Part shown: positions 2,100 to 19,336 of the stretch, piece by piece
Layout: each line of letters starts with the position of its first letter
How positions within the stretch are numbered: the first letter of the stretch is position 1
Source: a virus
Virus genome (UHGV): UHGV-0073937
Direction: 5' to 3' (one strand)
DNA: 22,825 nucleotides
Translations under genes and position numbers: made by a program
The notes under the pieces: generated by a model
Seen by the model: only the letters and a program-made list of their open reading frames with translations
Databases searched by the model: none
What the model was told of the DNA's origin: nothing

Positions 2100-2447
2100 G
2101 GATTATTTTTAGTGCTGAATGTGAAATTTAAATAAAAAGGACTCTTCCATGAGTCAAAATCCTTGAAATCTTAAGGGTAAGATAAAAGGTCATTAGACAG
2201 AATGACACGTTTTATTAATAAATAAAGCTATTGTTTCATTCGTGTGTTTTTCTTTACAAAAGTAATCCTTGCTATGGTTGGTTAATCATGCGTTAATGGT
2301 GTTCTGGTTTGTTACAAAATTATCTGAAGCAGTCATTGTTATAATTTTATTATTTGTACCTCTTGAGATTTCCTTGTTGGTTTTTCTCTCTGATATTTTT
2401 TTCGGACCATTCTGCCCAAGGGCTAACTTCTTCAAAAGGTAATAATG
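2100..2447 (+). promoter_or_regulatory. AT-rich promoter and long 5' leader of the cold-shock gene
   Basis: ~350 bp AT-rich non-coding stretch directly upstream of csp ORF, consistent with long csp-family 5' UTRs; no explicit -35/-10 assigned. Confidence 0.35.
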
Positions 2448-2660
2448 ATGTCTAACAAAATGACTGGTTTAGTGAAATGGTTTAACCCTGAAAAAGGTTT
2501 TGGTTTCATCACGCCGAAAGATGGTAGCAAAGATGTGTTTGTCCATTTCTCAGCTATTCAGAGCAACGATTTCAAAACGTTAACTGAGAATCAGCAAGTC
2601 GAATTTGGTATTGAGAACGGACCTAAAGGCCCCGCGGCTGTTCATGTAGTGGCACTTTGA
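2448..2660 (+). CDS. cspI: Cold-shock protein, CspI-like (CspA family, prophage-encoded)
   Basis: 70 aa [38 protein letters not shown]...; RNP1 motif KGFGFI and RNP2-like VFVHF; SD AAAAGG 7 nt upstream. Confidence 0.9.
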
Positions 2661-2865
2661 GGTAGAAAATATTACAAACCATATTCACTTTAGATGCCCG
2701 TGTTGCCATGGTTCTCAGTATAGAACATCATCTTTTGATGTTTCTGACAGGAATCCTTTCGGGGCAAAATGTATCTTTTGTAAATCAATGATGATTACAT
2801 TTGATAATATTTCACAATACTTAAATGTTAGCCGTCTGTCGTTAGATTTAAGAAAGTGAAAATGA

Positions 2866-4882: not shown

Positions 4883-5389
4883 ATGGCCTTTTTATTGAAT
4901 AAAAGTGATATGGCCTCCTCCATCGGTATCTCTGTTCAGGCATTTGATAAATGGGGCGTTCCTCCTGTCGAGCGTCGGGGGAGGGAAGTTTTTTATGACG
5001 TTAAAACTGTACTGGAGATAGATCGCGAGCGGCGACAACACAATCATAGAACACCTGATGACGGGGGCGATCTGGAGGAAAGGCTGCTTCGGGCCAGAGC
5101 TGAACTGACAGAAGAACAGGCCGTAGCTCAAAAACTTAAAAATCAGGTAACCGAAGGTAAGCTCATCGATTCAGACTTCTGCGTTTTCGCCCTCAGCAAG
5201 CTGGCGATGGCATTGTCCAGTACGCTTGATTCTATTCCGTTATCCATGCAGCGACAGTTCCCGGATTTAACGCCACGTCATCTTGACCATCTGAAAACCC
5301 TTATTGCGAAGGGCGCAAATCAGTGTGCGCGGGCAGGGGATAAATTACCGGATTTGCTGGATGAATATATCAGAGCAACAACTGAATAA
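4883..5389 (+). CDS. nu1: Terminase small subunit, lambda Nu1-like (NohA-like)
   Basis: 168 aa; N-terminal HTH region (ISVQAFDKWGVPPVERRGREVFYD) and C-terminal region (FCVFALSKLAMALSSTLDSIPLSMQRQFPDL) align with lambda Nu1; overlaps terL start. Confidence 0.9.
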   Translation: MAFLLNKSDMASSIGISVQAFDKWGVPPVERRGREVFYDVKTVLEIDRERRQHNHRTPDDGGDLEERLLRARAELTEEQAVAQKLKNQVTEGKLIDSDFCVFALSKLAMALSSTLDSIPLSMQRQFPDLTPRHLDHLKTLIAKGANQCARAGDKLPDLLDEYIRATTE

Positions 5390-7289
5390 TCTGATGGCTG
5401 CCGTTTCGGTTGCGCTGCAGCCTCTGGTCAGGGTTGTACCGATGACGGCAGTTGAATGGGCTGACCAGTATTATTATCTGCCGAAAGAATCCTCATACGG
5501 TGACGGCGAATGGAAAACGCTGCCGTTCCAGATCGCCATCATGAACAGTATGGGGAATGATCAGGTCCGCACTGTTAATCTGATTAAATCTGCCCGTGTT
5601 GGCTATACAAAGATGTTGCTGGGGGTGGTCGGGTATTTTATTGAGCATAAATCCCGAAACAGTCTGCTTTTTCAGCCCACGGATTCTGCCGCTGAAGATT
5701 TTATGAAGTCTCACGTGGAGACGACGATTAGGGACGTGCCATGCCTGAAAGACCTTTCCCCATGGCTGGGTCGTAAACATCGTGATAATACCCTCACGCT
5801 GAAACGCTTTTCATCGGGCGTCGGTTTCTGGTGCCTGGGCGGCGCTGCCGCCAAAAACTACCGTGAAAAATCCGTGGATGTGGTCTGCTATGACGAACTT
5901 TCCTCGTTCGAACCGGATGTTGAAAAAGAGGGTTCGCCAACCCTGCTGGGGGATAAACGTATTGAGGGCTCTGTATGGCCAAAATCCATTCGCGGCTCGA
6001 CGCCTAAAATCAAAGGCTCCTGCCAGATCGAAAAAGCCGCTAACGAGTCGGCACACTTCATGCGTTTTTATGTGCCCTGTCCGCACTGTGGGGAGGAGCA
6101 GTATCTGAAATTTGGCGATGATGCCTCGCCTTTCGGTCTTAAGTGGGAGAAGAATAAGCCAGAAAGTGTTTTCTACCTTTGTGAGCATCATGGCTGTGTG
6201 ATCCATCAGTCTGAGCTTGACCAGAGTAACGGGCGGTGGATCTGTGAAAACACGGGCATGTGGACCCGTGACGGCCTGATGTTTTTCAGCGCCCGGGGTG
6301 ATGAAATTCCGCCGCCGCGCTCCATCACTTTCCATATCTGGACGGCGTACAGTCCGTTCACCACCTGGGTACAGATAGTCTATGACTGGCTGGATGCACT
6401 GAAAGATCCCAACGGCCTGAAAACCTTTGTGAACACCACGCTGGGCGAGACCTACGAAGAGGCCGTGGGCGAAAAACTCGATCACCAGGTACTGATTGAT
6501 AAGGTCGTGCATTACACGGCGGCGGTGCCAGCCCGGGTGGTTTATCTGACGGCGGGCATTGACTCGCAGCGAAACCGTTTTGAGATGTATGTCTGGGGAT
6601 GGGCTCCGGGAGAGGAAGCCTTTCTGGTGGATAAAATCATCATTATGGGACGTCCCGATGAGGAAGAGACGCTGTTACGTGTGGATGCGGCGATCAACAA
6701 AAAATACCGCCATGCAGACGGAACCGAAATGACCATTTCCCGTGTCTGCTGGGACATCGGGGGTATCGATGGCGAAATCGTTTATCAGAGGTCAAAAAAA
6801 CACGGTGTTTTCCGGGTGCTGCCGGTAAAAGGCGCATCTGTCTATGGCAAGCCGGTGATCACCATGCCAAAAACCCGCAATCAGCGGGGCGTGTATCTGT
6901 GTGAAGTGGGGACAGACACCGCAAAAGAAATTCTCTATGCCCGTATGAAAGCCGAGCCCACGCCTGCGGATGAATCCACGTCGTATGCCATCCGTTTTCC
7001 TGATGATCCGGAGATTTTTTCGCAGACAGAGGCGCAGCAACTGGTCGCGGAAGAGCTTGTGGAGAAGTGGGAAAAAGGAAAGATGCGTCTGCTGTGGGAT
7101 AACAAAAAGCGGCGTAACGAAGCGCTGGACTGCCTGGTGTATGCCTACGCGGCATTACGTGTGTCCGTGCAACGCTGGCAGCTTGATCTGGCTGTACTGG
7201 CAAAATCCCGGGAAGAAGAGACGACCCGGCCAACCCTTAAAGAACTGGCAGCGAAGCTGTCCGGAGGAGTGAATGGTTACAGTCGCTGA
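5361..7289 (+). CDS. A: Terminase large subunit, lambda gpA-like
   Basis: 642 aa; extensive collinear similarity to lambda gpA (TAVEWADQYYYLPKES, KRIEGSVWPKSIRGSTPK, HFMRFYVPCPHCGEEQYLKFGD, TWVQIVYDW, YLTAGIDSQ, NKKRRNEALDC). Confidence 0.95.
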   Translation: MNISEQQLNNLMAAVSVALQPLVRVVPMTAVEWADQYYYLPKESSYGDGEWKTLPFQIAIMNSMGNDQVRTVNLIKSARVGYTKMLLGVVGYFIEHKSRNSLLFQPTDSAAEDFMKSHVETTIRDVPCLKDLSPWLGRKHRDNTLTLKRFSSGVGFWCLGGAAAKNYREKSVDVVCYDELSSFEPDVEKEGSPTLLGDKRIEGSVWPKSIRGSTPKIKGSCQIEKAANESAHFMRFYVPCPHCGEEQYLKFGDDASPFGLKWEKNKPESVFYLCEHHGCVIHQSELDQSNGRWICENTGMWTRDGLMFFSARGDEIPPPRSITFHIWTAYSPFTTWVQIVYDWLDALKDPNGLKTFVNTTLGETYEEAVGEKLDHQVLIDKVVHYTAAVPARVVYLTAGIDSQRNRFEMYVWGWAPGEEAFLVDKIIIMGRPDEEETLLRVDAAINKKYRHADGTEMTISRVCWDIGGIDGEIVYQRSKKHGVFRVLPVKGASVYGKPVITMPKTRNQRGVYLCEVGTDTAKEILYARMKAEPTPADESTSYAIRFPDDPEIFSQTEAQQLVAEELVEKWEKGKMRLLWDNKKRRNEALDCLVYAYAALRVSVQRWQLDLAVLAKSREEETTRPTLKELAAKLSGGVNGYSR

Positions 7290-7479
7290 ACTGCAGGCGC
7301 TGCGTCAGGCGCGCCTTGATTTATTAACCGGTAAACGGGTGGTGTCTGTCCAGAAAGATGGTCGCAGAATTGAATATACGGCTGCTTCTCTGGATGAGCT
7401 TAACCGGGCGATCAATGATGCGGAGTCGGTACTGGGGACAACCCGACGTCGCCGTCGTCCGCTGGGAGTGAGGTTATGA
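7273..7479 (+). CDS. W: Head-tail joining protein, lambda gpW-like
   Basis: 68 aa; LLTGKRVVSVQKDGRRIEYTAASL resembles lambda W; overlaps terL end and portal start as in lambda. Confidence 0.8.
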   Translation: MVTVAELQALRQARLDLLTGKRVVSVQKDGRRIEYTAASLDELNRAINDAESVLGTTRRRRRPLGVRL

Positions 7480-8348
7480 AACGAACGCCTGTCCTGATTG
7501 ATGTGAACGGTGTTCCGCTTCGTGAGAGTCTCAGCTACAACGGTGGCGGCGCAGGATTTGGCGGGCAAATGGCGGAGTGGTTGCCACCGGCGCAGAGTGC
7601 CGATGCGGCCCTGCTGCCCGCGTTGCGTCTGGGGAATGCCCGGGCAGATGATCTGGTGCGCAATAACGGAATAGCGGCTAATGCGGTTGCCCTGCATAAG
7701 GATCACATTGTCGGGCATATGTTTCTGATCAGCTACCGTCCGAACTGGCGCTGGCTGGGGATGCGGGAGACCGCAGCAAAAAGCTTTGTCGATGAGGTGG
7801 AGGCGGCCTGGTCGGAATACGCCGAAGGGATGTTTGGCGAGATCGACGTGGAAGGAAAACGCACGTTCACGGAATTTATCCGTGAAGGTGTGGGCGTTCA
7901 TGCGTTTAACGGCGAAATCTTTGTGCAGCCGGTCTGGGATACAGAAACCACGCAGTTATTCCGTACGCGTTTTAAAGCTGTGAGTCCGAAACGGGTGGAC
8001 ACGCCTGGACACGGTATGGGGAACCGTTTTCTGCGGGCCGGTGTGGAGGTCGATCGATATGGCCGTGCCGTCGCGTACCATATCTGTGAGGATGATTTTC
8101 CGTTCTCTGGTAGTGGACGATGGGAACGGATCCCGCGTGAACTTCCCACCGGGCGTCCGGCCATGCTGCATATTTTCGAGCCGGTGGAGGACGGGCAGAC
8201 CCGTGGGGCTAATCAGTTTTACAGCGTCATGGAACGGCTGAAGATGCTCGATTCCCTGCAGGCAACACAGCTTCAGTCGGCCATAGTGAAGGCGATTTAT
8301 GTCTATCATCTCACCGTAGTTGCCCGCATCGTTCGCCAACTCCACTGA
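7476..8348 (+). pseudogene. B: Portal protein (lambda gpB-like) N-terminal fragment, truncated by island insertion at ~8301
   Basis: First ~275 codons collinear with lambda gpB (GNARADDLVRNNG, FEPVEDGQTRGAN, QSAIVKA); after codon AIY the frame reads into unrelated sequence and stops at 8348. Confidence 0.85.
8289..8301. repeat. Left copy of 13-bp imperfect direct repeat (AAGGCGATTTATG) = putative att core (attL)
   Basis: Matches AAGGCGATGTATG at 18579-18591 (12/13); both copies lie exactly at the breakpoint in the portal reading frame. Confidence 0.65.
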
Positions 8349-8424
8349 AACCCTTGCTGCGTCTGGAATGTCGTTTTCCATACTTTTGATGACCGTTCAT
8401 CACCCTTCCAGTTTTTCGCGGTTT

Positions 8425-8478
8425 TGTGTATTGCAATGTGTATTGCAAATTGGCGATCGGGATGGGTGTGTATTGCAA
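8425..8478. repeat. Three copies of TGTGTATTGCAA (candidate integrase arm-type binding sites) upstream of int
   Basis: Perfect 12-mers at 8425-8436, 8437-8448, 8467-8478; two related copies (GTGTATTGCA) at 18483-18506 near other island end. Confidence 0.55.
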
Positions 8479-8496
8479 ATCTCTTGAGGGCTTTTA

Positions 8497-9738
8497 ATGG
8501 CTATTGAAAACAAACTCAGTGACAAACTGTTAAAGAGTCTTGTCGGAAAACGGCAGGACAAACAAAAAACAATAGCGGATGGGCGCGGGTTGTCTGTGCG
8601 TGTAAGCATGGTTGGGGGGATCAGCTTTGTTTTTTACTATCGTCTTGGTGGCAGGGAATCCCCTCCGGTATGGCTTACACTTGGTCGCTATCCTGACATG
8701 TCTCTTGCAACGGCCAGGCGCATGCGTGATCAGTGCCGTGAATGGCTGGCTGAAAATCTGGACCCCCGCAGGCAAATAAAACTTGCTGCCGAAAAAACTA
8801 TGCAACCAGTGACCGTAAGGGATGCGCTGTTTTACTGGTACGACAATCACGCCACAACAGCCAGAAAAGAGCATGAATATTTAATAAAACGATTTGAAAA
8901 GCATATCTTCCCCTATATCGGTGATATGGCTATAGAACAGTGCAAATTACACACATGGCTTACCGTCTTTGACAGGATCAAAAAAAATGCGCCTGTTATG
9001 TCTGGTGCAATTTTTCTTGATATCAAACAGGCGTTGCGTTTTTGTCGCGTCAGGCAATACATCGCGTGCGATCCCTTTGGAGATATTAACGTAAGTTATG
9101 TCGGGGGCTCATCCGGTATAAGGGATCGCGTTCTTAATATCAATGAAACCGCTGATGTATGGTCTTATGCTTACGGTAATAATTTGCTAACTCTGTCATC
9201 AATATATAACCGAAGAATAATGGTTATCTGCCTGGTGTTTGGTTGCCGACAGCAGGAGGCGAGGCTATCCACCTGGGACGAATGGGATTTAAAAAACTGG
9301 GTATGGACAGTCCCAAAAGAGCACAGCAAAAACAAGGAGGCTATAGTAAGGCCTGTTCCTGACGGAATAAAACAATGGATCGTTAATCTTTACGCAGAAA
9401 CAAAAAATCGCGGTTATGTTGTCGGTTGTGCTTTGCAAAGGGCGACAATAACAGGGGCTGCAAACAGAATATGCAGGCGTCTTGGTCATGATACTAATGG
9501 CTTGTGGTGCATACATGATTTCAGGCGCACATTTTCCACTACGCTTAATGATATGGGGGCGGATCCTTATATTGTCGAACTTCTTTTAGGTCATAAAGTG
9601 AAAGGGGTTGCTGGTGTTTACAATAAAAGCAGGCATATAAAGAAAAAACTTGAGGTGCTTAATATGTGGGTTAATTACCTTAATACGATAGCAGGATTTA
9701 ACAACAACGTTATCGAGCTTAATAAAGAGGTGGTGTGA
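8497..9738 (+). CDS. int: Tyrosine recombinase / integrase, P4-type
   Basis: 413 aa; N-terminal arm-binding-like region (GRGLSVRVS...GGISFVFYYR); C-terminal catalytic region with HDFRRTFST...LLGH...GVYNKS; adjacent to island boundary. Confidence 0.9.
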   Translation: MAIENKLSDKLLKSLVGKRQDKQKTIADGRGLSVRVSMVGGISFVFYYRLGGRESPPVWLTLGRYPDMSLATARRMRDQCREWLAENLDPRRQIKLAAEKTMQPVTVRDALFYWYDNHATTARKEHEYLIKRFEKHIFPYIGDMAIEQCKLHTWLTVFDRIKKNAPVMSGAIFLDIKQALRFCRVRQYIACDPFGDINVSYVGGSSGIRDRVLNINETADVWSYAYGNNLLTLSSIYNRRIMVICLVFGCRQQEARLSTWDEWDLKNWVWTVPKEHSKNKEAIVRPVPDGIKQWIVNLYAETKNRGYVVGCALQRATITGAANRICRRLGHDTNGLWCIHDFRRTFSTTLNDMGADPYIVELLLGHKVKGVAGVYNKSRHIKKKLEVLNMWVNYLNTIAGFNNNVIELNKEVV

Positions 9739-9739
9739 T

Positions 9740-9997
9740 ATGGCAATTTATTCTCTTGTTGATGAAAACGATTTGCGCACAATGAAGGACATTGATCGGT
9801 TCATTCGTGAAAAAGAGTGCATAGCACTTACCACGCTGGCAAACTCAACACGCTGGAAAATGGAGCAGGCAGGTAAATTCCCGCGACGTATCAAGATCGG
9901 TGAACGTGCTGCAGGGTATCGACTTTCAGAGGTTCAGGCATGGATCCGTGGTGAGTGGCATCCTGGATGGAAACCTGGAAAAACAAAACAGCAATAA
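9740..9997 (+). CDS. alpA: AlpA-family transcriptional regulator / excisionase-like protein
   Basis: 85 aa; HTH region IALTTLANSTRWKMEQAGKFPRRIKIGERAAGYRLSEVQAWI resembles AlpA/HTH_17; start ATG overlaps int stop (coupled). Confidence 0.7.
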   Translation: MAIYSLVDENDLRTMKDIDRFIREKECIALTTLANSTRWKMEQAGKFPRRIKIGERAAGYRLSEVQAWIRGEWHPGWKPGKTKQQ

Positions 9998-10010
9998 CCA
10001 GTAAATAATG

Positions 10011-10033
10011 CCCCTCATCACGAGGGGTTTTTT
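10011..10033 (+). terminator. Rho-independent terminator (CCCCTC-ATCAC-GAGGGG + T6)
   Basis: Perfect 6-bp GC stem then TTTTTTG immediately after alpA stop. Confidence 0.7.
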
Positions 10034-10053
10034 GTCTATAAGGTAAAAACGCG

Positions 10054-10632
10054 ATGAATAAAAATATTGCCGTGACGGGCAAGGGGTACGCTCGTCCAGT
10101 GAAAAAATTCTGCGATATTCGTGATCTCGTCGTTCTGCGCTTTGATAGTGTGAACGTTCGTGTGGTGTATCTGAACGGCGATCCGTGGTTTGTTGCAAAA
10201 GATGTTTGTGCTGCGCTGGAACTAACCAATTCGCGTACGGCGTTGCAGATGCTTGATGATGATGAAAAGGGAGTAAATTTAACTTACACCCCAGGAGGAA
10301 ATCAGAATATGAGAATTATCTCTGAGTCAGGTTTCTACAAACTAATAGCCCGCAGCCGCAAAGCAACGACGCCTGGCACATTTGCTCATCGTTTCAGTAA
10401 CTGGGTATTCAGAAATGTGATACCAGGTATCAGAAAAACGGGGACTTATGGTATCCCGTGGGGTGCATTACAGGATTTTTCCCGCCGTAAAGAGCAATAT
10501 CAAATAAGTGCCAGCGAGAAGGGGAGAGAGCTACAGGCATGTAAGCGCAAAAAGCGTGAGCTGGAGGAAGAAGAAAAAACGCTGATACGTGAATATCAGC
10601 CTGAGTTTTACTTTGGTAACCGCATTCAGTGA
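10054..10632 (+). CDS. Bro-N domain protein (putative antirepressor-like)
   Basis: 192 aa; N-terminal region (VVYLNGDPWFVAKDVCAALELTNSRTALQMLDDDEKG...RIISESGFYKLIARSRKATT...FSNWVFRNVIP) typical of Bro-N; charged coiled C-terminus. Confidence 0.65.
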   Translation: MNKNIAVTGKGYARPVKKFCDIRDLVVLRFDSVNVRVVYLNGDPWFVAKDVCAALELTNSRTALQMLDDDEKGVNLTYTPGGNQNMRIISESGFYKLIARSRKATTPGTFAHRFSNWVFRNVIPGIRKTGTYGIPWGALQDFSRRKEQYQISASEKGRELQACKRKKRELEEEEKTLIREYQPEFYFGNRIQ

Positions 10633-10661
10633 CAAAACAAAGGCGACCGGGGGCGGTCGCC
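10630..10661 (-). terminator. Hairpin terminator for leftward small-gene operon (GGCGACCG-GGGG-CGGTCGCC; T-rich on minus strand)
   Basis: 8-bp perfect GC-rich stem; minus-strand downstream sequence TTTGTTTTGTC; sits between convergent genes. Confidence 0.55.
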
Positions 10662-10725
10662 AGTGGGAAAACACTAAACATAAGCACGAGGATGATAGCC
10701 GCTATCAGGTTGGTGGGCAATGTGA

Positions 10726-10935
10726 TCAGCCTGGTGGGCGGTTCCTGTTAGCTTTCATTACCCGGGGCTGTTTATTGAGAAACTCATCAAGCGCAAATTT
10801 TGTAGGCGCTGGTTCTGTATTTGGTGGCATTTGTTTAGCGTGTGCCTTTTCTTTCTGGCGTGCAACAATGCTCTGTAAAAGCAATCTTCGTTGTTCTGCG
10901 AAAATCTCTTCAGTGGATAGGTATTTTTTGCTCAT
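10726..10935 (-). CDS. Hypothetical small protein (leftward switch operon, second gene)
   Basis: 69-aa ORF downstream of 10993..11172 on same strand, followed by hairpin terminator. Confidence 0.45.
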   Translation of the reverse strand: MSKKYLSTEEIFAEQRRLLLQSIVARQKEKAHAKQMPPNTEPAPTKFALDEFLNKQPRVMKANRNRPPG

Positions 10936-10992
10936 AGTGCCGACCTGTAAAGCAATGCGCCGGAGTACCTCACACCACAGCGCTGATAGTGA

Positions 10993-11172
10993 TTATTCTT
11001 GCTCTTTAGCCTTGCGTCGCTGGCGGTATTCAACTTCTCGCTTTAATGCTGCTGTTACAAACTGCCCTGTACTTTCACCAGGCATTTTTACCGCCTCAAC
11101 ATTGTTCATAACTTCATGCGGAACCCTTGCCGCAACTGTTTGTGATTTTGCGTTTACTGCTTTTGTCGCCAT
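10993..11172 (-). CDS. Small putative DNA-binding regulator (possible RHH-type repressor), first gene of leftward operon
   Basis: 59-aa ORF derived by manual translation (below ORF-track size cut-off): MATKAVNAKSQTVAARVPHEVMNNVEAVKMPGESTGQFVTAALKREVEYRQRRKAKEQE; diverges from operator repeats. Confidence 0.45.
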   Translation of the reverse strand: MATKAVNAKSQTVAARVPHEVMNNVEAVKMPGESTGQFVTAALKREVEYRQRRKAKEQE

Positions 11173-11222
11173 GTTGTGTACCCCTCACAAAAAACAAATG
11201 CAGTATGCAGGAAAAAAAACAA

Positions 11223-11274
11223 GTGTTCAACACTTGACGTGTTCAACACCTGGGTTTAAATTGGTGTTCAACAC
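11223..11274. promoter_or_regulatory. Operator/promoter region: three perfect copies of near-palindromic 11-mer GTGTTCAACAC with candidate rightward sigma70 promoter
   Basis: Copies at 11223-11233, 11239-11249, 11264-11274; TTGACG (11234-11239) and TTTAAAT (11255-11261) fit -35/-10 with ~16-nt spacer; lies between divergent operons. Confidence 0.65.
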
Positions 11275-11371
11275 CTTGTTGGTGCAAGGTGCAGAAACGA
11301 CGAAACCCGGCAGTGCGCTAACACTAACCGGGCTTCTAACCACCAACGATAGCAACAGTATCGAGGTAGCT

Positions 11372-11575
11372 ATGAGAAATCATACCACACACCCGCAAGG
11401 GCGGGGCTCGCACAACCTGAATAAATACATCTGGCGTTTTATCGCCCTGAGCACCGCACAACCACGCGTAATACACATCGAGGCCGCCAGCGAACAGGAA
11501 GCCCGGCTGCAATCCCCAACTGGCTGCGTGATGATATTCGCCGCCCGTATTCGTCAGGAGGTATGCCGTGCTTAA
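11372..11575 (+). CDS. Small protein, first gene of rightward operon (possibly Icd-like)
   Basis: 67 aa from ATG 11372 with SD GAGG; MRNHTTHPQGRGSHNLNKYIWRFIALSTAQPRVIHIEAASEQEARLQSPTGCVMIFAARIRQE; family assignment from memory only. Confidence 0.45.
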   Translation: MRNHTTHPQGRGSHNLNKYIWRFIALSTAQPRVIHIEAASEQEARLQSPTGCVMIFAARIRQEVCRA

Positions 11576-11753
11576 AACCTTTCGTGTATTTGCTCGTGCG
11601 GTTAACCCACTAGGCCACACAATTGGTATCGCTCAGAACGTGAAGGCTGTTAATGTTCAGACGGCTATTGCTGCGGTGAGAAGCGAATCATCAGAATATG
11701 GCTTATCACAAGTCATTATCTCAGCAGTGTATGAATTAAAAGAGGTGCATTAA
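11568..11753 (+). CDS. Hypothetical protein
   Basis: 61-aa ORF; start overlaps upstream stop (coupled), part of tightly packed operon. Confidence 0.4.
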   Translation: MLKTFRVFARAVNPLGHTIGIAQNVKAVNVQTAIAAVRSESSEYGLSQVIISAVYELKEVH

Positions 11754-11944
11754 TGCAGGAAATTACATTACACGAAGCCGCTGAACGTGCGCACCAGACA
11801 GAAATTGTTTGCCGCCTTCTTGAGTTATACCCGAACAAAATTACAGATGCTGATATATCCGCGCTGGCGAGCCTACTGGCGCGCCTTTCGGGAAGTGTCG
11901 CTAGTTTCCTGATTGAGGAAGAAAGTAAGCTGGTGGGGGATTAA
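11753..11944 (+). CDS. Hypothetical protein
   Basis: 63-aa ORF; ATG overlaps previous stop (TAATG). Confidence 0.4.
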   Translation: MQEITLHEAAERAHQTEIVCRLLELYPNKITDADISALASLLARLSGSVASFLIEEESKLVGD

Positions 11945-12166
11945 ATGAATACAGAACGAGAAGTCTTTTTTAAATTGTTAGCATGTGCAGAGAGTTCATT
12001 AACTTTAAATAATTCAGCAAAAGCAATATTAAATATGTGGCTTGATTGCATAAATGACAATGAAGATGCAAATATTGCTTATGGCCTGTTGTCACTTATT
12101 GATGAAGCAGCAGAGAAACTTAATGACACAATAAATAGTGCCCTGCTATCAAATAAGTCGAGTTAA
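11945..12166 (+). CDS. Hypothetical protein
   Basis: 73-aa ORF; start overlaps previous stop; AT-rich codon usage suggests separate origin. Confidence 0.4.
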   Translation: MNTEREVFFKLLACAESSLTLNNSAKAILNMWLDCINDNEDANIAYGLLSLIDEAAEKLNDTINSALLSNKSS

Positions 12167-12183
12167 GTCGAAGAATAAATAAT

Positions 12184-12483
12184 ATGGAAATGAAAAATTC
12201 TGGCTTTATTGCCAGCGGCCCCGCTCGGCCTGAATTTATGAACGGCGATATTTACCGCGATAAATACGGCGGCACGGTAACGATTAAAGGCGTGGCAGAA
12301 CGGCGCATCACTTACCGCCGTGAGGGGTATAGCTATGACTGCGTGATGCCTGTTTATCAGTTCCGGCGTGATTTTTCCCTGGTATATGCCGCACCCCGCA
12401 GTAAGCCCATCAGCAGGGAAAAAGCGCGGGGAAACATCCAGAAAATGAAAAGCATGATTAACGCATTCAGGGGCAAAAAATGA
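12184..12483 (+). CDS. Hypothetical protein
   Basis: 99-aa ORF; stop overlaps start of replication protein (ATGA). Confidence 0.45.
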   Translation: MEMKNSGFIASGPARPEFMNGDIYRDKYGGTVTIKGVAERRITYRREGYSYDCVMPVYQFRRDFSLVYAAPRSKPISREKARGNIQKMKSMINAFRGKK

Positions 12484-14231
12484 AACTGGCACCGAACTTA
12501 AAAAAACAGCCACGCGACAGACTGACAGAGGTAATCATCTTTGCAGGTAGTGATGCGTGGAGCCATGCGAAAGAGTGGCAGGAATGGGCGGGTAAACATA
12601 TTGCCGCCGACGATGTGCCGCCTGTCGTGCTGGCTGATGAGCAACTGAAAAACATCACCGATTACCGGATCATTGATGAAGATCGTCAGTGTGTGCGTGT
12701 TTACCGCGCAGGACATATCACAGAGCACAGCATGACGCAGATTGTTACGTTACTGGCTGTGGCTGGAGTGAAGACCGTACACGAATACGCGGGGATTACT
12801 GACACCAGCCCAGTGGATTTATCCGACCAGTTGCCGCGACTCAAAGAGGAATGCGAGCGTGGGGAAAGTCTGGTGCTTAATCTTCCGACGAAGCAAAAGG
12901 CGCAACTTTCACAGATGGCAGACAGTGAACGTGCACAACTACTTGCCGATCGCTTTGATGGTGTGTGTGTTCATGCAGAAAGTGAAATCGTCCACGTATG
13001 GCGCGGCGGGGTATGGTGTCCGGTCAGCACAATGGAGCTGAGCCGCGAAATGGTGGCGATCTATTCAGAGCACAGGGCCACGTTCAGCAAACGTGTAATC
13101 AATAACGCCGTGGAAGCGTTAAAAGTTATTGCCGACCCCATGGGGGAGCCGTCCAGTGATTTGCTACCGTTCACTAATGGTGTGCTTAACCTGAAAACGG
13201 GAGAATTTTCTCCGCACTCGCCGGAGCACTGGAGCACCACGCACAATGGCATTGAGTACACGCCACCAGTAGCAGGGGAAAACATCCGCGATAATGCGCC
13301 AAATTTCCATAAATGGCTTGAACATGCTGCAGGAAAAGACCCGCGCAAGATGATGCGTATATGTGCCGCGTTATACATGATTATGGCGAACCGCTACGAC
13401 TGGCAGATGTTCATTGAGGCCACCGGAGACGGGGGAAGCGGAAAGAGCACATTTACCCATATTGCCACCCTGCTTGCTGGCAAACAGAACACCGTAAGCG
13501 CAGAGATGACATCACTCGATGATGCAGGTGGGCGCGCGCAGGTTGTCGGGAGTCGTCTTATCGTCCTTGCCGATCAGCCGAAATATACGGGTGAAGGCAC
13601 TGGCATCAAGAAAATCACGGGAGGCGATCCCGTCGAAATTAACCCGAAATATGAGAAGCGATTCACGACGATAATAAGGGCGGTGGTACTGGCGACCAAT
13701 AACGACCCTATGATCTTTACCGAACGGGCCGGAGGTGTGTCACGCCGTCGGGTGATTTTCCGGTTCGACAACATTGTAAGGGAGGACGAAAAAGACAAGG
13801 AATTACCGGAAAAGATAGCGGCAGAAATCCCCGTAATTATCCGCCGCTTGCTGGCTAACTTTGCTGACCCTGAAAAGGCACGAGCTTTACTACTGGAACA
13901 GCGAGACGGTGATGAAGCTCTGGCAATAAAGCAGCAAACGGATCCGGTTGTTGAGCTTTGCGCGGCGCTGGAGTTTCTGGAGGAAGCTCGTGGGCTAATG
14001 ATGGGCGGTGGTGGTGACTCCGTGAAGTACACGACCAGAAACAGCCTTTACCGTGTCTATATGGCCTTCATGGCATACACAGGAAAGGGGAAATGTTTGA
14101 GCGTGAATGAGTTCGGAAAGGCTATGAGGTCAGCGGCGAAAGTTTACGGATATGAATATATTACTCGAAAAGTTAAGGGAGTCACGCAGACCAACGCAAC
14201 GACTACTGATGATTGCGATGCGTTTTTATAA
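12480..14231 (+). CDS. Replication protein: primase C-terminal/D5-N domain with SF3-type P-loop NTPase (pri-rep-like)
   Basis: 583 aa; Walker A GDGGSGKST, downstream Walker B-like RLIVLADQ; architecture typical of P4-alpha/PICI pri-rep proteins; followed by iterons. Confidence 0.8.
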   Translation: MKLAPNLKKQPRDRLTEVIIFAGSDAWSHAKEWQEWAGKHIAADDVPPVVLADEQLKNITDYRIIDEDRQCVRVYRAGHITEHSMTQIVTLLAVAGVKTVHEYAGITDTSPVDLSDQLPRLKEECERGESLVLNLPTKQKAQLSQMADSERAQLLADRFDGVCVHAESEIVHVWRGGVWCPVSTMELSREMVAIYSEHRATFSKRVINNAVEALKVIADPMGEPSSDLLPFTNGVLNLKTGEFSPHSPEHWSTTHNGIEYTPPVAGENIRDNAPNFHKWLEHAAGKDPRKMMRICAALYMIMANRYDWQMFIEATGDGGSGKSTFTHIATLLAGKQNTVSAEMTSLDDAGGRAQVVGSRLIVLADQPKYTGEGTGIKKITGGDPVEINPKYEKRFTTIIRAVVLATNNDPMIFTERAGGVSRRRVIFRFDNIVREDEKDKELPEKIAAEIPVIIRRLLANFADPEKARALLLEQRDGDEALAIKQQTDPVVELCAALEFLEEARGLMMGGGGDSVKYTTRNSLYRVYMAFMAYTGKGKCLSVNEFGKAMRSAAKVYGYEYITRKVKGVTQTNATTTDDCDAFL

Positions 14232-14239
14232 AAAATGGC

Positions 14240-14480
14240 AATGGTTATCTACCTTGTCTACCTGACTGAAAGAAAATACTTTTATTTCAATGTATTAATG
14301 CAGGTAGATAACTATTTTTCACTGTCTACCTGTTATCTACCTTATCTACCCATTTTTGTAGACAGGTAAGGAGACGGGTAGAGATGAGGTAGACAGCTAT
14401 TTGGGGCTGTCTACCTCCCTGAAACCCGCGCCATTACTGGCCTGATAACTAATCAGGTAGACAAGGTAGACAAGGTGGTG
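14240..14480. repeat. Iteron array (>=10 copies of GGTAGACA / TATCTACC in both orientations) = putative origin of replication
   Basis: e.g. TTATCTACCTTGTCTACC, CAGGTAGATAAC, CTGTCTACCTGTTATCTACCTTATCTACC, GGTAGACAAGGTAGACAAGG; non-coding, directly downstream of rep gene. Confidence 0.75.
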
Positions 14481-16844: not shown

Positions 16845-17228
16845 ATGCAGAATCATTACAATGACCTTAAGCCAATTGCCGAAATGATGTATCCGGATCC
16901 AGCAGTAGAGGAATTAAAGGCTATTGCTGACAAAATGCGTTTAAGTGAACGCCTTGTTGATATGAATCAGGTGATGGAACTTACTACCCTTAGCCGTCGC
17001 ACATTGCTAAACCTTGAGGCTCGCGGAGAGTTCCCCGAACGCGTACAGGTTACGGAAGGGCGTAAGGCCTGGTATTTAAGTGAAGTGATCGACTGGATAA
17101 ACAATATTCCTCGATCTTCTGAATATTGCCGCGTACCTGTCCCAAAAAAGCCAGATGCGGCGCTATGCCTCAAGATTGAGCGTGTACGTCGCAATGCACG
17201 GGATGGTCGCTATAAGTTGATTGGTTGA
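16845..17228 (+). CDS. AlpA-like HTH domain protein immediately upstream of island cos
   Basis: 127 aa; central HTH resembling AlpA/HTH_17 (MNQVMELTTLSRRTLLNLEARGEFPERVQVTEGRKAWYLSEVIDWI); strong SD. Confidence 0.55.
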   Translation: MQNHYNDLKPIAEMMYPDPAVEELKAIADKMRLSERLVDMNQVMELTTLSRRTLLNLEARGEFPERVQVTEGRKAWYLSEVIDWINNIPRSSEYCRVPVPKKPDAALCLKIERVRRNARDGRYKLIG

Positions 17229-18482: not shown

Positions 18483-18506
18483 CGTGTATTGCAGTGTGTA
18501 TTGCGA
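18483..18506. repeat. Two copies of GTGTATTGCA-type repeat near right island end (candidate arm sites)
   Basis: CGTGTATTGCAGTGTGTATTGCGA; same motif as 8425-8478. Confidence 0.5.
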
Positions 18507-18591: not shown

Positions 18592-19336
18592 CCGCCACCA
18601 TTGAGAGTGAGCTGGATACGCAGTCAGCGATGGATTTTATTCTGGGCGCGAACAGTCAGGAGCAGCGGGAAAGGCTGACCGGCTGGATTGGTGAAATTGC
18701 CGCGTATTACGCCGCAGCACCGGTCCGGCTGGGAGGCGCAAAAGTGCCGCACCTGATGCCGGGTGACTCACTGAACCTGCAGGCTACTCCGTGTTTGAGC
18801 AGTCACTGCTGCGGTATATCGCTGCCGGGCTGGGTGTCTCGTATGAGCAGCTTTCCCGGAATTACGCCCAGATGAGCTACTCCACGGCACGGGCCAGCGC
18901 GAACGAGTCGTGGGCGCACTTTATGGGGCGGCGAAAATTCGTCGCATCCCGTCAGGCGAGTCAGATGTTTCTGTGCTGGCTGGAAGAGGCCATCGTTCGC
19001 CGCGTGGTGACGTTACCTTCAAAAGCGCGCTTCAGTTTTCAGGAAGCCCGTAGTGCCTGGGGGAACTGCGACTGGATAGGCTCCGGTCGTATGGCCATCG
19101 ATGGTCTGAAAGAAGTTCAGGAAGCGGTGATGCTGATAGAAGCCGGACTGAGCACCTACGAGAAAGAGTGCGCGAAACGCGGTGACGACTATCAGGAAAT
19201 TTTTGCCCAGCAGGTCCGTGAAACGATGGAGCGCCGCGCGGCTGGTCTTAAACCGCCCGCCTGGGCGGCTGAGGCATTTGAATCCGGGCTGCGACAATCA
19301 ACAGAGGAGGAGAAGAGTGACAGCAGAGCTGCGTAA
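18579..19336 (+). pseudogene. B: Portal protein (lambda gpB) C-terminal fragment, additionally frameshifted near 18767-18790
   Basis: MYAATIESELDTQSAMDFILGANSQEQRERLTGWIGEIAAYY... then frame change; second frame continues VFEQSLLRYIAAGLGVSYEQL... to the overlap with C; matches lambda gpB C-terminus. Confidence 0.85.

What the first reader, a model, noticed from the sequence alone, without database searches (positions are those of the whole stretch)
11190..11290. Three-operator genetic switch between divergent small-gene operons of the island
Three perfect copies of the near-palindromic 11-mer GTGTTCAACAC (11223-11233, 11239-11249, 11264-11274) overlap a plausible rightward promoter (TTGACG ...16 nt... 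TTTAAAT). They lie between a leftward pair of small genes (10993..11172, 10726..10935, ending in a hairpin terminator) and the rightward operon that leads into the replication gene. This looks like the island immunity/derepression switch; the 59-aa leftward product is a candidate repressor and a likely target of a helper-encoded inducer.
Basis: seen in the sequence. Interest (0 to 1): 0.6.

Follow-up and report, generated by a model that had tools for sequence, protein, structure and literature searches.

The report
Hidden repressor switch of a phage satellite
The three repeats are most likely the binding sites of a tiny, previously overlooked repressor that keeps the replication genes of a phage-parasitising island switched off; Gram-negative islands of this kind, including the laboratory model EcCICFT073, were thought to lack such a repressor.

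Summary
Observation confirmed. GTGTTCAACAC occurs exactly three times in the window (11223, 11239, 11264; 0.01 expected) and sits on a sigma-70 promoter, TTGACG-17-TAAATT.

Interpretation largely supported and extended. The 59-aa leftward gene (YlcI/YnfO family) is predicted to fold as a ribbon-helix-helix. Its homologues are nearly invariant except for residues 11-15 of the DNA-reading strand. In about 40 related loci from more than 12 genera, the three GTG-N5-CAC repeats change together with those residues. They do not track AlpA, Bro-N or Icd. Promoter geometry is conserved: one site in the spacer, one at +1, one on the repressor's own promoter.

- A SymR-like antisense RNA (11371..11299, minus strand) covers the ribosome-binding site of the first rightward gene.
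- That gene is a homologue of P4 kil. It ends a stop-free frame (10586-11575) that runs antisense through the repressor gene, as in P4 eta/kil. Synonymous sites of the repressor gene are selected to keep this frame open (0/135 vs 402/1202).
- The island sits inside a lambdoid portal gene.

Nothing is shown biochemically. That a helper protein targets the repressor is untested; an upstream read-through bypass fits published AlpA data better.

The parts
11223..11233 (.). Operator O1 (GTGTTCAACAC). It abuts the -35 of P_R and contains the proposed -35 (TTGAAC, minus strand) of the repressor's own promoter P_L.
   Evidence: Exact copy. A site at this position (-61 from the ylcI ATG) is found only in the QT[VIL]AA type (window, L001, L002, L004, L038). 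Other types instead carry the third site at +1 of P_L.
11239..11249 (.). Operator O2, in the spacer of P_R directly after the -35.
   Evidence: Exact copy. A site at the same position next to TTGAC is present in 24 of 25 loci examined, with a type-specific sequence.
11264..11274 (.). Operator O3, starting 2 bp after the -10 of P_R and covering the predicted start site.
   Evidence: Exact copy. The position is conserved 0-3 bp after the -10 in related loci.
11234..11262 (+). Promoter P_R: -35 TTGACG (11234-11239), 17-nt spacer, -10 TAAATT (11257-11262); predicted start ~11269.
   Evidence: Promoter scan. TTGA[CA][GA], a 17-18 nt spacer and TAnnnT are kept in 23 of 24 related loci even though the spacer sequence, which is the operator, differs.
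11202..11230 (-). Proposed promoter P_L of the repressor gene: -35 TTGAAC (11230..11225, inside O1), 17-nt spacer, -10 CATACT (11207..11202). A GAGGGG Shine-Dalgarno sequence precedes the ATG at 11172.
   Evidence: My reading. It matches 8 of 12 consensus positions, below the scan threshold. A -10 (TATACT, TATATT or CATACT) at -36 from the ATG is conserved in all related loci.
10993..11172 (-). ylcI-like gene: a 59-aa predicted ribbon-helix-helix repressor. Residues 11-15 (QTVAA) form the specificity-determining strand.
10726..10935 (-). 69-aa gene downstream of ylcI, function unknown; an accessory gene, not a conserved partner.
   Evidence: No family hit. Identical in L001, L033 and L044, which carry different repressor types. 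Absent or replaced in other genera.
10642..10661 (-). Intrinsic terminator of the leftward ylcI operon. It has no T-run on the + strand, so it does not terminate rightward transcription.
   Evidence: Terminator scan; sequence.
11299..11371 (-). SymR-like cis-antisense RNA (~75 nt). It is complementary to the P_R leader and the Shine-Dalgarno sequence of icd/kil.
   Evidence: Rfam RF01809: 32.9 bits, E 5e-4, below the gathering threshold of 61. Relatives score 32-46 bits. Two hairpins: 17 of 25 pairs show compensatory changes, 96.8% of cells are paired against 35-48% in slid controls, and 0 of 500 shuffles match. 98 G.U cells place the structure on this strand. It aligns with K-12 symR.
11379..11387 (-). 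Promoter of the antisense RNA: extended -10 TGgTATGAT (11387..11379), inside icd codons 2-5; start ~11371.
   Evidence: Sequence. T1, A2 and T6 of the hexamer are invariant in 26 loci, although the overlapping Icd N-termini differ.
11372..11575 (+). icd-like gene (67 aa), the first gene of the P_R operon; a homologue of P4 kil.
   Evidence: NCBIfam NF033153, 69.8 bits. The P4 'cI ORF' residues 85-132 hit the same model at 73.9 bits. L009 Icd against the P4 ORF gives BLASTP E 2e-13.
10586..11575 (+). Stop-free reading frame of 329 codons that ends as icd (eta-like). It starts 46 nt before the Bro-N stop codon. It runs through the ylcI-operon terminator, the antisense of the 69-aa gene and of ylcI, the operators and the leader.
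   Evidence: There are 0 stops in 200 codons against 8-22 in the other two frames in most loci. In 32 of 33 loci an open frame through the operators spans all of ylcI in antisense. The synonymous-site test gives 0/135 vs 402/1202, p 4.5e-23.
11568..14231 (+). Remainder of the P_R operon: ORFs 11568-11753, 11753-11944 and 11945-12166, DUF4222 at 12184-12483, and the D5_N/DUF5906 P4-type primase at 12480-14231.
8497..10632 (+). Upstream co-directional operon: integrase 8497-9738, AlpA 9740-9997, and the Bro-N (Ant-like) protein 10054-10632.
   Evidence: Pfam Phage_AlpA 5e-14 and Bro-N 5e-20. PHROG 'anti-repressor' phrog_2593, 4e-85.
14240..14475 (.). Replication origin: at least 10 copies of the iteron (T/G)TATCTACCT in both orientations, just after the primase gene. 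This is where the island's iterons are, not at 11223-11274.
   Evidence: The position agrees with PMC6092414 and PMC10111431, which place the origin downstream of pri.

Best explanation
The three 11-mers are the operators of a 59-residue ribbon-helix-helix (RHH) repressor of the YlcI/YnfO family, encoded immediately to their left on the opposite strand.

First lock, the repressor. O2 (promoter spacer) and O3 (start site) bracket the -10 of a conserved rightward promoter, P_R. Bound repressor therefore blocks RNA polymerase and silences the operon icd/kil-like gene, small ORFs, DUF4222 and primase. This is the replication module of a phage satellite: a phage-inducible chromosomal island (PICI) embedded in the portal gene of a lambdoid prophage. 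O1 lies on the -35 of the repressor's own leftward promoter, so the repressor also limits its own synthesis. Residues 11-15 of the beta-strand set the specificity. The family has diversified into at least a dozen repressor/operator pairs, that is, immunity types.

Second lock, the antisense RNA. A ~75-nt SymR-like RNA is made from a promoter inside icd codons 2-5. It pairs with the leader and ribosome-binding site of any P_R transcript.

Proposed bypass. The repressor gene, the operators and the leader all lie inside one stop-free rightward reading frame. That frame starts at the end of the int-alpA-bro operon and ends as icd, the arrangement of the nested eta/kil genes of satellite P4. I propose that transcription arriving from upstream is translated straight through the switch. 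That transcription would come from AlpA auto-activation, or here from helper late transcription entering the embedded island. It would escape both locks and, being convergent with the repressor gene, shut the repressor down.

What is shown in sequence and by comparison: the repeats, the promoter geometry, the predicted fold, the protein/operator co-variation, the RNA structure and its strand, the open frame and the selection that maintains it, and the homology to P4 kil.

What is inferred: binding, repression, autoregulation, the action of the antisense RNA, and the whole bypass step.
For: Repeats and promoter.

Hypervariability: 30 homologues are near-invariant except residues 11-15. Hydrophobic residues at 13 and 15 alternate with variable polar residues at 12 and 14, and R16 is invariant. 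The motif R-V-P-H-E-V lines up with Arc R13-W-P-R-E-V, which puts T12, A14 and R16 at Arc's DNA-contact positions Q9, N11 and R13 (the Arc residues are from memory).

Co-variation of the strand with the operator:
- QT[VIL]AA pairs with GTGTTGAACAC.
- QSVTA and QSLTA pair with GTGTCTTACAC.
- QSLKS and QALKA pair with GTGTGGCCCAC.
- [KR]KLEA pairs with GTGTCAGCCAC.
- KRFDV pairs with GTGTCGGACAC.
- KKIDV pairs with GTGTCTGACAC.
- QALRA pairs with GTGGTCTACAC.
- QK[LV]Q[AT] pairs with GTGGACTCCAC.
- QKMSA pairs with CTGGCACCCA.
- QKIQA pairs with CTGGATTCCA.
Of 496 locus pairs, 59 share both strand and operator and 422 share neither. Only 15 are discordant, and all of these are K/R exchanges or lie within the QK-type group.

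The operator follows the strand, not overall similarity. L004 is 58% identical to the window protein and has the same strand and operator. L033 is 75% identical and has a different strand and operator.

Dissociation from other proteins: the same repressor and operators occur with AlpA proteins only 25-47% identical to each other, and the window's nearest AlpA (61%) sits with different operators. Bro-N is 89-95% identical across three repressor types.

P_R geometry is conserved in 23 of 24 loci.

Antisense RNA.

Open frame. P4 homology. P4 eta/kil logic as summarised in PMC10111431.

The module is present in the model PICI EcCICFT073.
Against: - There are no binding, reporter or transcript data of any kind.
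- Operator and repressor are adjacent, so co-inheritance alone produces some co-variation. The argument rests on concerted change of all three sites, on change concentrated in the predicted DNA-reading residues, and on cases decoupled from overall divergence. It does not rest on a phylogeny-corrected statistic.
- Operator spacings (16 and 25 bp here, 22-25 and 45 bp elsewhere) show no helical phasing, so cooperativity is unclear.
- P_L in this window matches only 8 of 12 consensus positions.
- The SymR match is below Rfam's gathering score.
- In 5-6 of 33 loci the long frame stops a few codons before icd rather than running into it.
- The long frame's product has no family hit and an odd composition.
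- The published model for these islands needs only an activator, AlpA.
Confidence: 0.7

Rival explanations
1. The repressor is as described, but it is inactivated by a helper-phage protein that binds it, in the SaPI Stl manner. Alternatively it is inactivated by the island's own Ant-like Bro-N protein made from the alpA operon. In either case upstream read-through is not the route.
For: SaPI and Gram-positive PICI repressors work this way (summarised in PMC6092414). The gene after alpA hits PHROG 'anti-repressor' families at 4e-85. The helical body of the repressor is conserved and could be a common docking surface.
Against: Bro-N does not track repressor type, being 89-95% identical across three types. 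It is replaced by an unrelated ORF6N protein in L001 with the identical repressor. It is absent in L033, L034 and L036, where alpA directly faces ylcI. AlpA over-expression alone, without a helper, induces EcCICFT073 (PMC6092414). This rival does not explain the selected stop-free frame. It is not exclusive with the main model.
Confidence: 0.2
2. ylcI and the 69-aa gene form a toxin-antitoxin-like pair. The repeats serve only to autoregulate that leftward operon, and their overlap with P_R is incidental.
Against: The 69-aa gene is absent or replaced in most genera, and ylcI is usually solitary. Two of the three sites sit in the spacer and at +1 of P_R in 24 loci. This position is conserved independently of sequence. 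The 69-aa protein has no PADLOC-independent or family signal.
Confidence: 0.07
3. The 11-mers are binding sites for AlpA, the known activator of Gram-negative PICIs, which would switch on the rightward operon from them.
For: AlpA is a DNA-binding regulator that is necessary and sufficient for induction (PMC6092414).
Against: Operator sequence does not follow AlpA. Identical operators occur with AlpA proteins 25-47% identical, and the closest AlpA (61%) sits with different operators. Sites in the spacer and at +1 are positions for repression, not activation. No copy of the 11-mer lies near alpA's own promoter, which AlpA activates.
Confidence: 0.04
4. The repeats are replication iterons or chance repeats.
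For: Short repeats lie near a replication gene cluster.
Against: The island's iterons are at 14240-14475, after the primase gene. The expected number of chance copies is 0.01. Position relative to promoter elements is conserved across genera.
Confidence: 0.02

Closest known systems
Satellite phage P4 immunity region (vis - eta/kil nested genes, promoter P_LE inside eta, CI RNA)
   Same: Same gene order and homologous parts. An AlpA/Vis-family gene lies upstream. A long ORF opens at the end of the upstream gene. An internal promoter drives a ~65-aa cell-toxic product that is the C-terminal part of the long ORF; both are NF033153. A P4-type primase lies downstream. In P4, translation of eta from the upstream late promoter makes transcription immune to immunity (PMC10111431; Forti et al. 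1999, from memory).
   Different: P4 has no protein repressor. Its immunity factor is the CI RNA, processed from the leader and acting on seqA/seqC. Here there is no C4/isrK-type hit. Instead an RHH gene lies antisense inside the long ORF, three operators sit on the internal promoter, and there is a cis-antisense RNA. YlcI has no tblastn match in P4 or in any of 50,697 phage records.
Phage P22 immI region (mnt - Omnt/Pant - arc - ant, with sar antisense RNA)
   Same: It works alike. A divergently transcribed RHH repressor (Mnt) has its operator overlapping the rightward promoter and autoregulates. A small antisense RNA made from a promoter inside the downstream gene covers that gene's ribosome-binding site. 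(From memory of the P22 literature.)
E. coli K-12 symE/symR (SOS-repressed gene with cis-antisense RNA)
   Same: The antisense RNA is homologous. It aligns with K-12 symR, including the -10, the two hairpins and the CAT opposite the start codon, and it hits Rfam SymR at 33-46 bits. The logic has the same two tiers: a transcriptional repressor at the promoter plus an antisense RNA over the ribosome-binding site.
   Different: The match is below the family's gathering score (61). The target gene is icd/kil-like, not symE. The repressor is an island-encoded RHH protein rather than LexA; in K-12 a LexA-box-like CTGT-N8-TCAG lies where operator O3 lies here.
Stl/Rpr master repressors of SaPIs and Gram-positive PICIs
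   Same: The role is the same: an island-encoded repressor holds the replication and packaging genes off in the absence of a helper, from a site between divergent promoters.
   Different: Stl proteins are large HTH proteins relieved by binding helper proteins. Here the repressor is a 59-aa RHH protein, the relief mechanism is unknown, and AlpA is required (PMC6092414).
Omega repressor of pSM19035, CopG and MetJ (RHH proteins binding arrays of short repeats)
   Different: The units here are 11 bp (GTG-N5-CAC) and are separated by 5-34 bp rather than contiguous.

Membership tests
Ribbon-helix-helix (Arc/MetJ/CopG) DNA-binding proteins | Beta-strand / helix / helix fold of about 45 residues | tested here: met
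Ribbon-helix-helix (Arc/MetJ/CopG) DNA-binding proteins | Dimer whose paired N-terminal strands enter the major groove; alternating strand residues read the bases | not testable with these tools
   Indirect only. The strand alternates hydrophobic (13, 15, 17) with variable polar (12, 14) residues and has an invariant R16. It co-varies with the operator core.
Ribbon-helix-helix (Arc/MetJ/CopG) DNA-binding proteins | Binds repeated short operator units overlapping a promoter | tested here: inconclusive
   Three units lie on P_R/P_L, with type-specific concerted change in about 40 loci.
NCBIfam NF041551 YlcI/YnfO family | Score at or above the curated cutoff (30 bits) | tested here: met
   59.7 bits, E 2e-16. 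RefSeq annotates the identical protein as a YlcI/YnfO family protein.
P4-type immunity region (eta/kil nested genes) | The first gene after the internal promoter is a Kil/Icd-like protein of about 65 aa | tested here: met
   NF033153 scores 69.8 bits for the window gene and 73.9 bits for the P4 ORF residues 85-132. BLASTP of a relative against P4 gives 2e-13. The window protein against P4 directly is not significant.
P4-type immunity region (eta/kil nested genes) | That gene is the in-frame 3' end of a longer ORF that begins upstream of the promoter, at the end of the vis/alpA-side gene | tested here: met
   The frame is open from 10586 to 11575 and opens 46 nt before the Bro-N stop. The feature is general and maintained by selection on synonymous sites.
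P4-type immunity region (eta/kil nested genes) | Immunity factor is a CI RNA with seqA/seqC targets (Rfam C4 / isrK) | tested here: not met
   There is no C4 or isrK hit at gathering threshold in the window, nor at E<=10 in 10900-12300.
P4-type immunity region (eta/kil nested genes) | Translation of the long ORF prevents termination of transcripts from the upstream promoter | not testable with these tools
   Inferred by analogy.
Rfam RF01809 SymR | Score at or above the gathering threshold (61 bits) | tested here: not met
   32.9 bits in the window; 32.4-45.6 bits in relatives.
Rfam RF01809 SymR | Cis-antisense to the 5' end and ribosome-binding site of the adjacent gene, with its own promoter inside that gene and two hairpins | tested here: met
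   Promoter TGgTATGAT at 11387..11379, with TAnnnT invariant in 26 loci. Structure co-variation and strand assignment. Alignment with K-12 symR. No transcript data.
Rfam RF01809 SymR | Target is symE | tested here: not met
   The target is an icd/kil-like gene.
Gram-negative PICI / helper-embedded PICI (HE-PICI) | int + alpA + primase co-oriented, origin after the primase gene, and integration inside and co-oriented with a lambdoid late gene | tested here: met
   int, AlpA and primase. Iterons at 14240-14475. The portal N-terminal part is at 7476-8348, and the C-terminal part resumes after ~18600. The doubled arm motif GTGTATTGCAA lies at both ends, as described in PMC10111431.

The most novel reading that the evidence does not exclude
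The repressor gene is a true antisense-embedded gene. It lies wholly inside a rightward reading frame that must be translated, and the two frames share wobble positions. The island then flips from silent to active not by an anti-repressor but by ribosome-coupled read-through from the AlpA-activated (or helper late) promoter. This read-through runs over the repressor gene, the operators and the antisense-RNA target. It bypasses both locks and extinguishes repressor synthesis by convergent transcription. This would be a bistable switch built from two overlapping genes on opposite strands. It would also unify P4 and PICI regulation and explain why AlpA alone induces these islands.
Probability: 0.35. 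Interest if true: 0.85.

Novelty: new variant of a known kind. Interest (0 to 1): 0.72.

Why it matters
Gram-negative phage-inducible chromosomal islands (PICIs), including capsid-forming and helper-embedded ones, are major vehicles of gene transfer in Enterobacterales. [quoted passage not shown] A 2026 survey still lists YlcI/YnfO only as a 'prophage-associated protein' (PMC13612085).

This analysis points to a specific 59-aa repressor, its operators and its promoter. It finds them in the model element EcCICFT073, where the small genes carry out-of-series locus tags and were probably not annotated originally. It also finds them in a cf-PICI (L001) and in about a quarter of complete E. coli genomes (1319 of 5426 match at least the leader; 561 carry this immunity type).

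The open question becomes directly testable with existing strains. The analysis also supplies:
- A natural set of a dozen or more orthogonal mini-repressor/operator pairs differing in 2-3 residues, which is useful for reading the RHH recognition code and for synthetic circuits.
- A link between PICI regulation and P4 eta/kil, and between both and the chromosomal symE/symR locus.
- A rare case in which selection for an antisense overlapping reading frame can be shown from synonymous sites.

Tried and rejected
- Rfam at gathering threshold over the whole window, and at E<=10 around the switch, gave no C4, isrK or P4-CI type RNA. P4-style RNA immunity is rejected for this island.
- Pfam gave no family for the 59-aa protein, only weak RHH-family hits among its homologues.
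- tblastn of the repressor against 50,697 phage genomes found no match. The repressor is therefore not a borrowed phage immunity gene of the kinds in that collection. The Icd-like protein hit only one 16.5-kb 'phage', probably a satellite.
- AlpA as the binder was rejected by dissociation.
- Bro-N as a type-specific antirepressor shows no co-variation. This does not exclude binding to the conserved part of the repressor.
- The 69-aa gene as an obligatory partner or toxin is not conserved.
- Iterons lie elsewhere.
- The long ORF as a known protein family gave no hit except Icd at its end. The 'ash family' labels in RefSeq cover a different insertion (L040) or a pseudogene call over the operator and leader region (L044).
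- A direct BLASTP of the window Icd against the P4 ORF was not significant. Homology was established through the shared NCBIfam model and an intermediate sequence.
- Literature searches for YlcI/YnfO, RHH plus satellite, SymR plus Icd, and SymR plus P4-like found no prior description. Forti et al. 1999 could not be retrieved.
Full report
1. THE OBSERVATION

GTGTTCAACAC occurs exactly three times in the window, at 11223-11233, 11239-11249 and 11264-11274, all on the + strand. Shuffles expect 0.01 copies. The copies extend slightly as GTGTTCAACAC(C/T)T(G/T), with start-to-start spacings of 16 and 25 bp. The promoter scan finds TTGACG (11234-11239), a 17-nt spacer and TAAATT (11257-11262) on the + strand. 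O1 therefore abuts the -35, O2 fills the spacer and O3 begins 2 bp after the -10.

2. CONTEXT

The element is a Gram-negative phage-inducible chromosomal island (PICI). Its genes, in order:
- integrase, 8497-9738
- AlpA, 9740-9997
- Bro-N protein, 10054-10632
- the switch
- Icd-like gene, 11372-11575
- small ORFs
- DUF4222, 12184-12483
- D5/P4-type primase, 12480-14231
- iteron origin, 14240-14475
- SSB
- capsid E-like, decoration D-like and Nu1-like genes

The island interrupts a lambda-family portal gene. The N-terminal part of that gene is at 7476-8348 and the C-terminal part resumes after ~18600. The motif GTGTATTGCAA is doubled at both ends. It is therefore a helper-embedded PICI of the kind described in PMC10111431.

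The same switch, 98-100% identical, occurs in other contexts:
- E. coli islands with different integration and late modules, including a capsid-forming PICI (L001)
- a roxA/phoQ island of an O157-like strain (L038)
- Edwardsiella hoshinae (L002)

3. WHO BINDS THE REPEATS

The homologues are almost invariant except residues 11-15. The same holds for the 80 representatives found in 1.84 billion proteins. The pattern is that of an RHH strand:
- hydrophobic residues at 13, 15 and 17
- variable polar residues at 12 and 14
- an invariant R16 followed by V-P-H-E-V, which matches Arc R13-W-P-R-E-V (Arc numbering from memory)

4. CO-VARIATION

I fetched the gene's surroundings in 31 species genomes, several metagenome and NCBI contigs, and E. 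coli genomes. Every locus has three GTG-N5-CAC units upstream of the gene. The three units agree with each other within a locus and differ between loci according to residues 11-15. At least ten pairings were found:

| Strand residues 11-15 | Operator unit |
|---|---|
| QT[VIL]AA | GTGTTGAACAC |
| QSVTA, QSLTA | GTGTCTTACAC |
| QSLKS, QALKA | GTGTGGCCCAC |
| [KR]KLEA | GTGTCAGCCAC |
| KRFDV | GTGTCGGACAC |
| KKIDV | GTGTCTGACAC |
| QALRA | GTGGTCTACAC |
| QK[LV]Q[AT] | GTGGACTCCAC |
| QKMSA | CTGGCACCCA |
| QKIQA | CTGGATTCCA |

The operator follows the strand, not overall similarity. Kosakonia L004 is 58% identical to the window protein, carries QTIAA and has the window's operator three times. 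E. coli L033 is 75% identical, with an identical C-terminal half and an identical leader. It carries QSVTA and has a different operator. KKLEA proteins from E. coli and Xenorhabdus share GTGTCAGCCAC. Proteins with a different N-terminal arm (MTRD...) also differ in the outer triplets, CTG...CCA.

Other island proteins do not track the operators:
- Identical repressor and operators occur with AlpA proteins that are 25-47% identical to each other.
- The window's closest AlpA (61%) sits with different operators.
- Bro-N is 89-95% identical across three repressor types and is replaced or absent elsewhere.
- The Icd type is shared between the window and L033.

The caveat is that repressor and operators are adjacent and co-inherited, and no phylogeny-corrected statistic was computed.

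5. PROMOTER GEOMETRY

In 23 of 24 relatives the rightward strand keeps TTGA[CA][GA], a 17-18 nt spacer and TAnnnT. One unit lies directly after the -35 and one lies 0-3 bp after the -10, although the unit sequences differ.

The repressor's own -10 is conserved 36 nt before its ATG. In most types the third unit follows that -10, at +1 of P_L. In the window's type it has moved onto the -35, where TTGAAC lies inside O1 with a 17-nt spacer to CATACT. L004 keeps both positions.

These are positions for repression of P_R and for autoregulation. The 11-mer occurs nowhere else in the island, so the regulon is local.

6. A SECOND LOCK: AN ANTISENSE RNA

The stretch 11271-11380 is conserved upstream of icd-like genes in many more E. 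coli islands than the ylcI DNA itself. At relaxed threshold Rfam reports a SymR-like RNA on the minus strand, 11371..11299, at 32.9 bits and E 5e-4 against a gathering score of 61. Relatives score 32-46 bits on the same strand.

Evidence from an alignment of 26 loci:
- T1, A2 and T6 of a -10 hexamer are invariant. In the window this is TGgTATGAT at 11387..11379. The Icd N-termini encoded opposite it differ.
- The RNA folds into two hairpins in which 17 of 25 pairs show compensatory changes.
- 96.8% of cells are paired, against 35-48% when the partners are slid, and 0 of 500 shuffles reach this value.
- 98 G.U cells would be A.C on the other strand, where pairing falls to 81.9%. This places the structure on the minus strand.

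The RNA aligns with K-12 symR. Where the islands have operator O3, K-12 has a LexA-box-like sequence. By analogy with SymR (from memory: Kawano et al. 2007), the RNA would block translation of icd and destabilise leaky P_R transcripts.

7. THE SWITCH LIES INSIDE A LONG READING FRAME, AS IN P4

The icd frame is open for 262 codons upstream of its ATG, back to 10586. That point is 46 nt before the Bro-N stop codon. The frame runs across the ylcI-operon terminator, the antisense of both small genes, the operators and the leader.

This is general:
- Most loci have one frame with 0 stops in 200 codons, while the other two frames carry 8-22 stops.
- In 32 of 33 loci an open frame through the operators spans all of ylcI in antisense, usually continuing into Icd.
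- In L038 the frame opens directly after the alpA stop codon, in the same frame as alpA.

The wobble positions of the two frames coincide. The YlcI frame is the better conserved one: 60.9% identity and BLOSUM 3.18 per residue, against 54.1% and 2.33 for the antisense frame.

In this register a stop arises in the antisense frame only when a ylcI codon ending in T precedes CAN, or one ending in T or C precedes TAN. In 34 distinct ylcI sequences, codons in that position that have a T-ending synonym end in T 0 of 135 times. Elsewhere the figure is 402 of 1202 (Fisher p 4.5e-23, uncorrected for relatedness). The frame is therefore kept open by selection.

The long product has no family other than Icd at its end. 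This suggests that the act of translation matters, rather than the product.

The layout is that of P4. The P4 ORF historically called cI (8168-8584, minus strand) hits the same Icd-like model with residues 85-132, which is Kil. A relative's Icd matches it at 2e-13. The P4 vis stop codon overlaps the eta start. PMC10111431 summarises the P4 logic:
- A constitutive promoter lies inside eta.
- Kil is translated from that promoter's transcripts.
- Full-length Eta is made only from the upstream late promoter and is translationally coupled to the alpA homologue.
- Eta translation prevents termination.

P4 lacks ylcI. This island lacks CI/seqA-type RNAs.

8. MECHANISM PROPOSED

In the silent state:
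- The RHH repressor sits on O2 and O3 and blocks P_R. From O1 it limits its own synthesis.
- The antisense RNA neutralises leaky transcripts.

In the induced state:
- AlpA is activated by the helper and activates itself. It is necessary and sufficient for excision and replication (PMC6092414).
- In this embedded island, helper late transcription could also enter from the left (hypothesised in PMC10111431).
- Either source sends rightward transcripts through the stop-free frame.
- Ribosomes cross the leader, so neither the icd ribosome-binding site nor freedom from the antisense RNA is needed.
- Convergent transcription interferes with ylcI.

No strong rightward terminator lies in the way.

My sub-confidences are:
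- 0.75-0.8 that the repressor binds the operators and represses P_R
- 0.6 for autoregulation
- 0.7 that the antisense RNA exists, and 0.5 that it acts as described
- 0.6 that the long frame is translated
- 0.35 for the bypass as the induction route

An anti-repressor route remains possible, whether by a helper protein or by the Ant-like Bro-N (PHROG anti-repressor, 4e-85). The two routes are not exclusive.

9. COMPARISON AND NOVELTY

The parts are of known kinds:
- an RHH repressor with repeated operators (Mnt, Arc, omega, CopG)
- a cis-antisense RNA over a ribosome-binding site (sar, SymR)
- nested eta/kil genes (P4)

The combination is not described in the searchable literature. That includes the repressor gene lying antisense inside the translated frame. 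The 2018 founding paper calls a repressor in Gram-negative PICIs 'unclear'. A 2026 survey lists YlcI/YnfO only as a 'prophage-associated protein'.

The module is present in EcCICFT073: strand QALKA, operator GTGTGGCCCAC, promoter TTGACG-17-TATAGT. There the small genes carry out-of-series locus tags. About a quarter of complete E. coli genomes match at least the leader (1319 of 5426), and 561 carry most of this type. A locus matched only through the leader still has a YlcI-type gene, operators and the open frame.

I rate it a new variant of a known kind, with interest 0.72.

Noticed in passing
window 11299-11387 (minus strand): A SymR-like cis-antisense RNA with its own extended -10 promoter inside icd codons 2-5. 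It is complementary to the leader and Shine-Dalgarno sequence of icd. It shows strong structural co-variation in 26 loci, and G.U pairs assign it to the minus strand.
   Followed up: yes
window 10586-11575 (+ strand): A 329-codon stop-free frame ending as icd. It runs antisense through ylcI, the 69-aa gene and their terminator. It is conserved in 32 of 33 loci and maintained by synonymous-site selection in ylcI (0/135 vs 402/1202). The layout matches P4 eta/kil.
   Followed up: yes
window 7476-8348 and ~18600-19336: The island interrupts a lambda-family portal gene of a lambdoid prophage. Terminase lies at 5304-7289 upstream. The S49 protease, capsid E and FI lie downstream. The island is therefore a helper-embedded PICI, co-oriented with the helper's late operon.
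   Followed up: partly
window 8426-8478 and 18484-18506: GTGTATTGCAA occurs three times just upstream of int, two of them adjacent, and twice adjacent with 1 mismatch each near the right end. Shuffles expect 0.56 copies. These are probably the doubled arm-type motif that PMC10111431 reports for HE-PICI attP.
   Followed up: partly
window 14240-14475: A dense array of at least 10 (T/G)TATCTACCT iterons in both orientations lies directly after the primase gene. This is the likely island origin of replication.
   Followed up: partly
L042 (E. coli K-12 NC_000913.3 4579815-4579935): K-12 symR and its promoter align with the island antisense RNA. A LexA-box-like CTGTATATATCATCAG lies where the islands have their promoter-distal operator. 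The symE/symR control region may be a relic or relative of this satellite cassette, with LexA in place of the RHH repressor.
   Followed up: partly
L043 (E. coli CFT073 NC_004431.1 1380242-1381052): The model PICI EcCICFT073 carries the ylcI-type gene (strand QALKA), GTGTGGCCCAC operators, a small downstream gene and icd. Their locus tags (C_RS30120, C_RS30125, C_RS30800) are out of series. This suggests they were added at re-annotation and were not in the maps used by the original studies.
   Followed up: partly
window 16845-17228: A second AlpA-family gene (127 aa; PHROG 'excisionase and transcriptional regulator') lies in the late zone, between a head-decoration-like gene and a Nu1-like small terminase gene.
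   Followed up: no
window 2291-2706: Rfam cspA thermoregulator at 113.7 bits, above the gathering score. A cold-shock protein gene with its 5' UTR lies to the left of the prophage late genes.
   Followed up: no
L040 1819-1998 (minus strand): In one E. coli relative a second small Arc/Mnt-like ORF (VSTHKNERRGNPPFQFRLDPDLREKMEK...) lies downstream of ylcI. An 'ash family' fragment is inserted between the operators and icd.
   Followed up: no
L003 5853-5921, L005 5893-5961, L022 5519-5587: Rfam int-alpA RNA (RF02996) is found above its gathering score in three related islands. It is not found in the window.
   Followed up: no
P0082, P0087, P0088, P0096, P0100-P0102, L051: Some family members are 100-130 aa long, with a helical C-terminal extension after the RHH domain. 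This may be an oligomerisation domain like that of Mnt.
   Followed up: no
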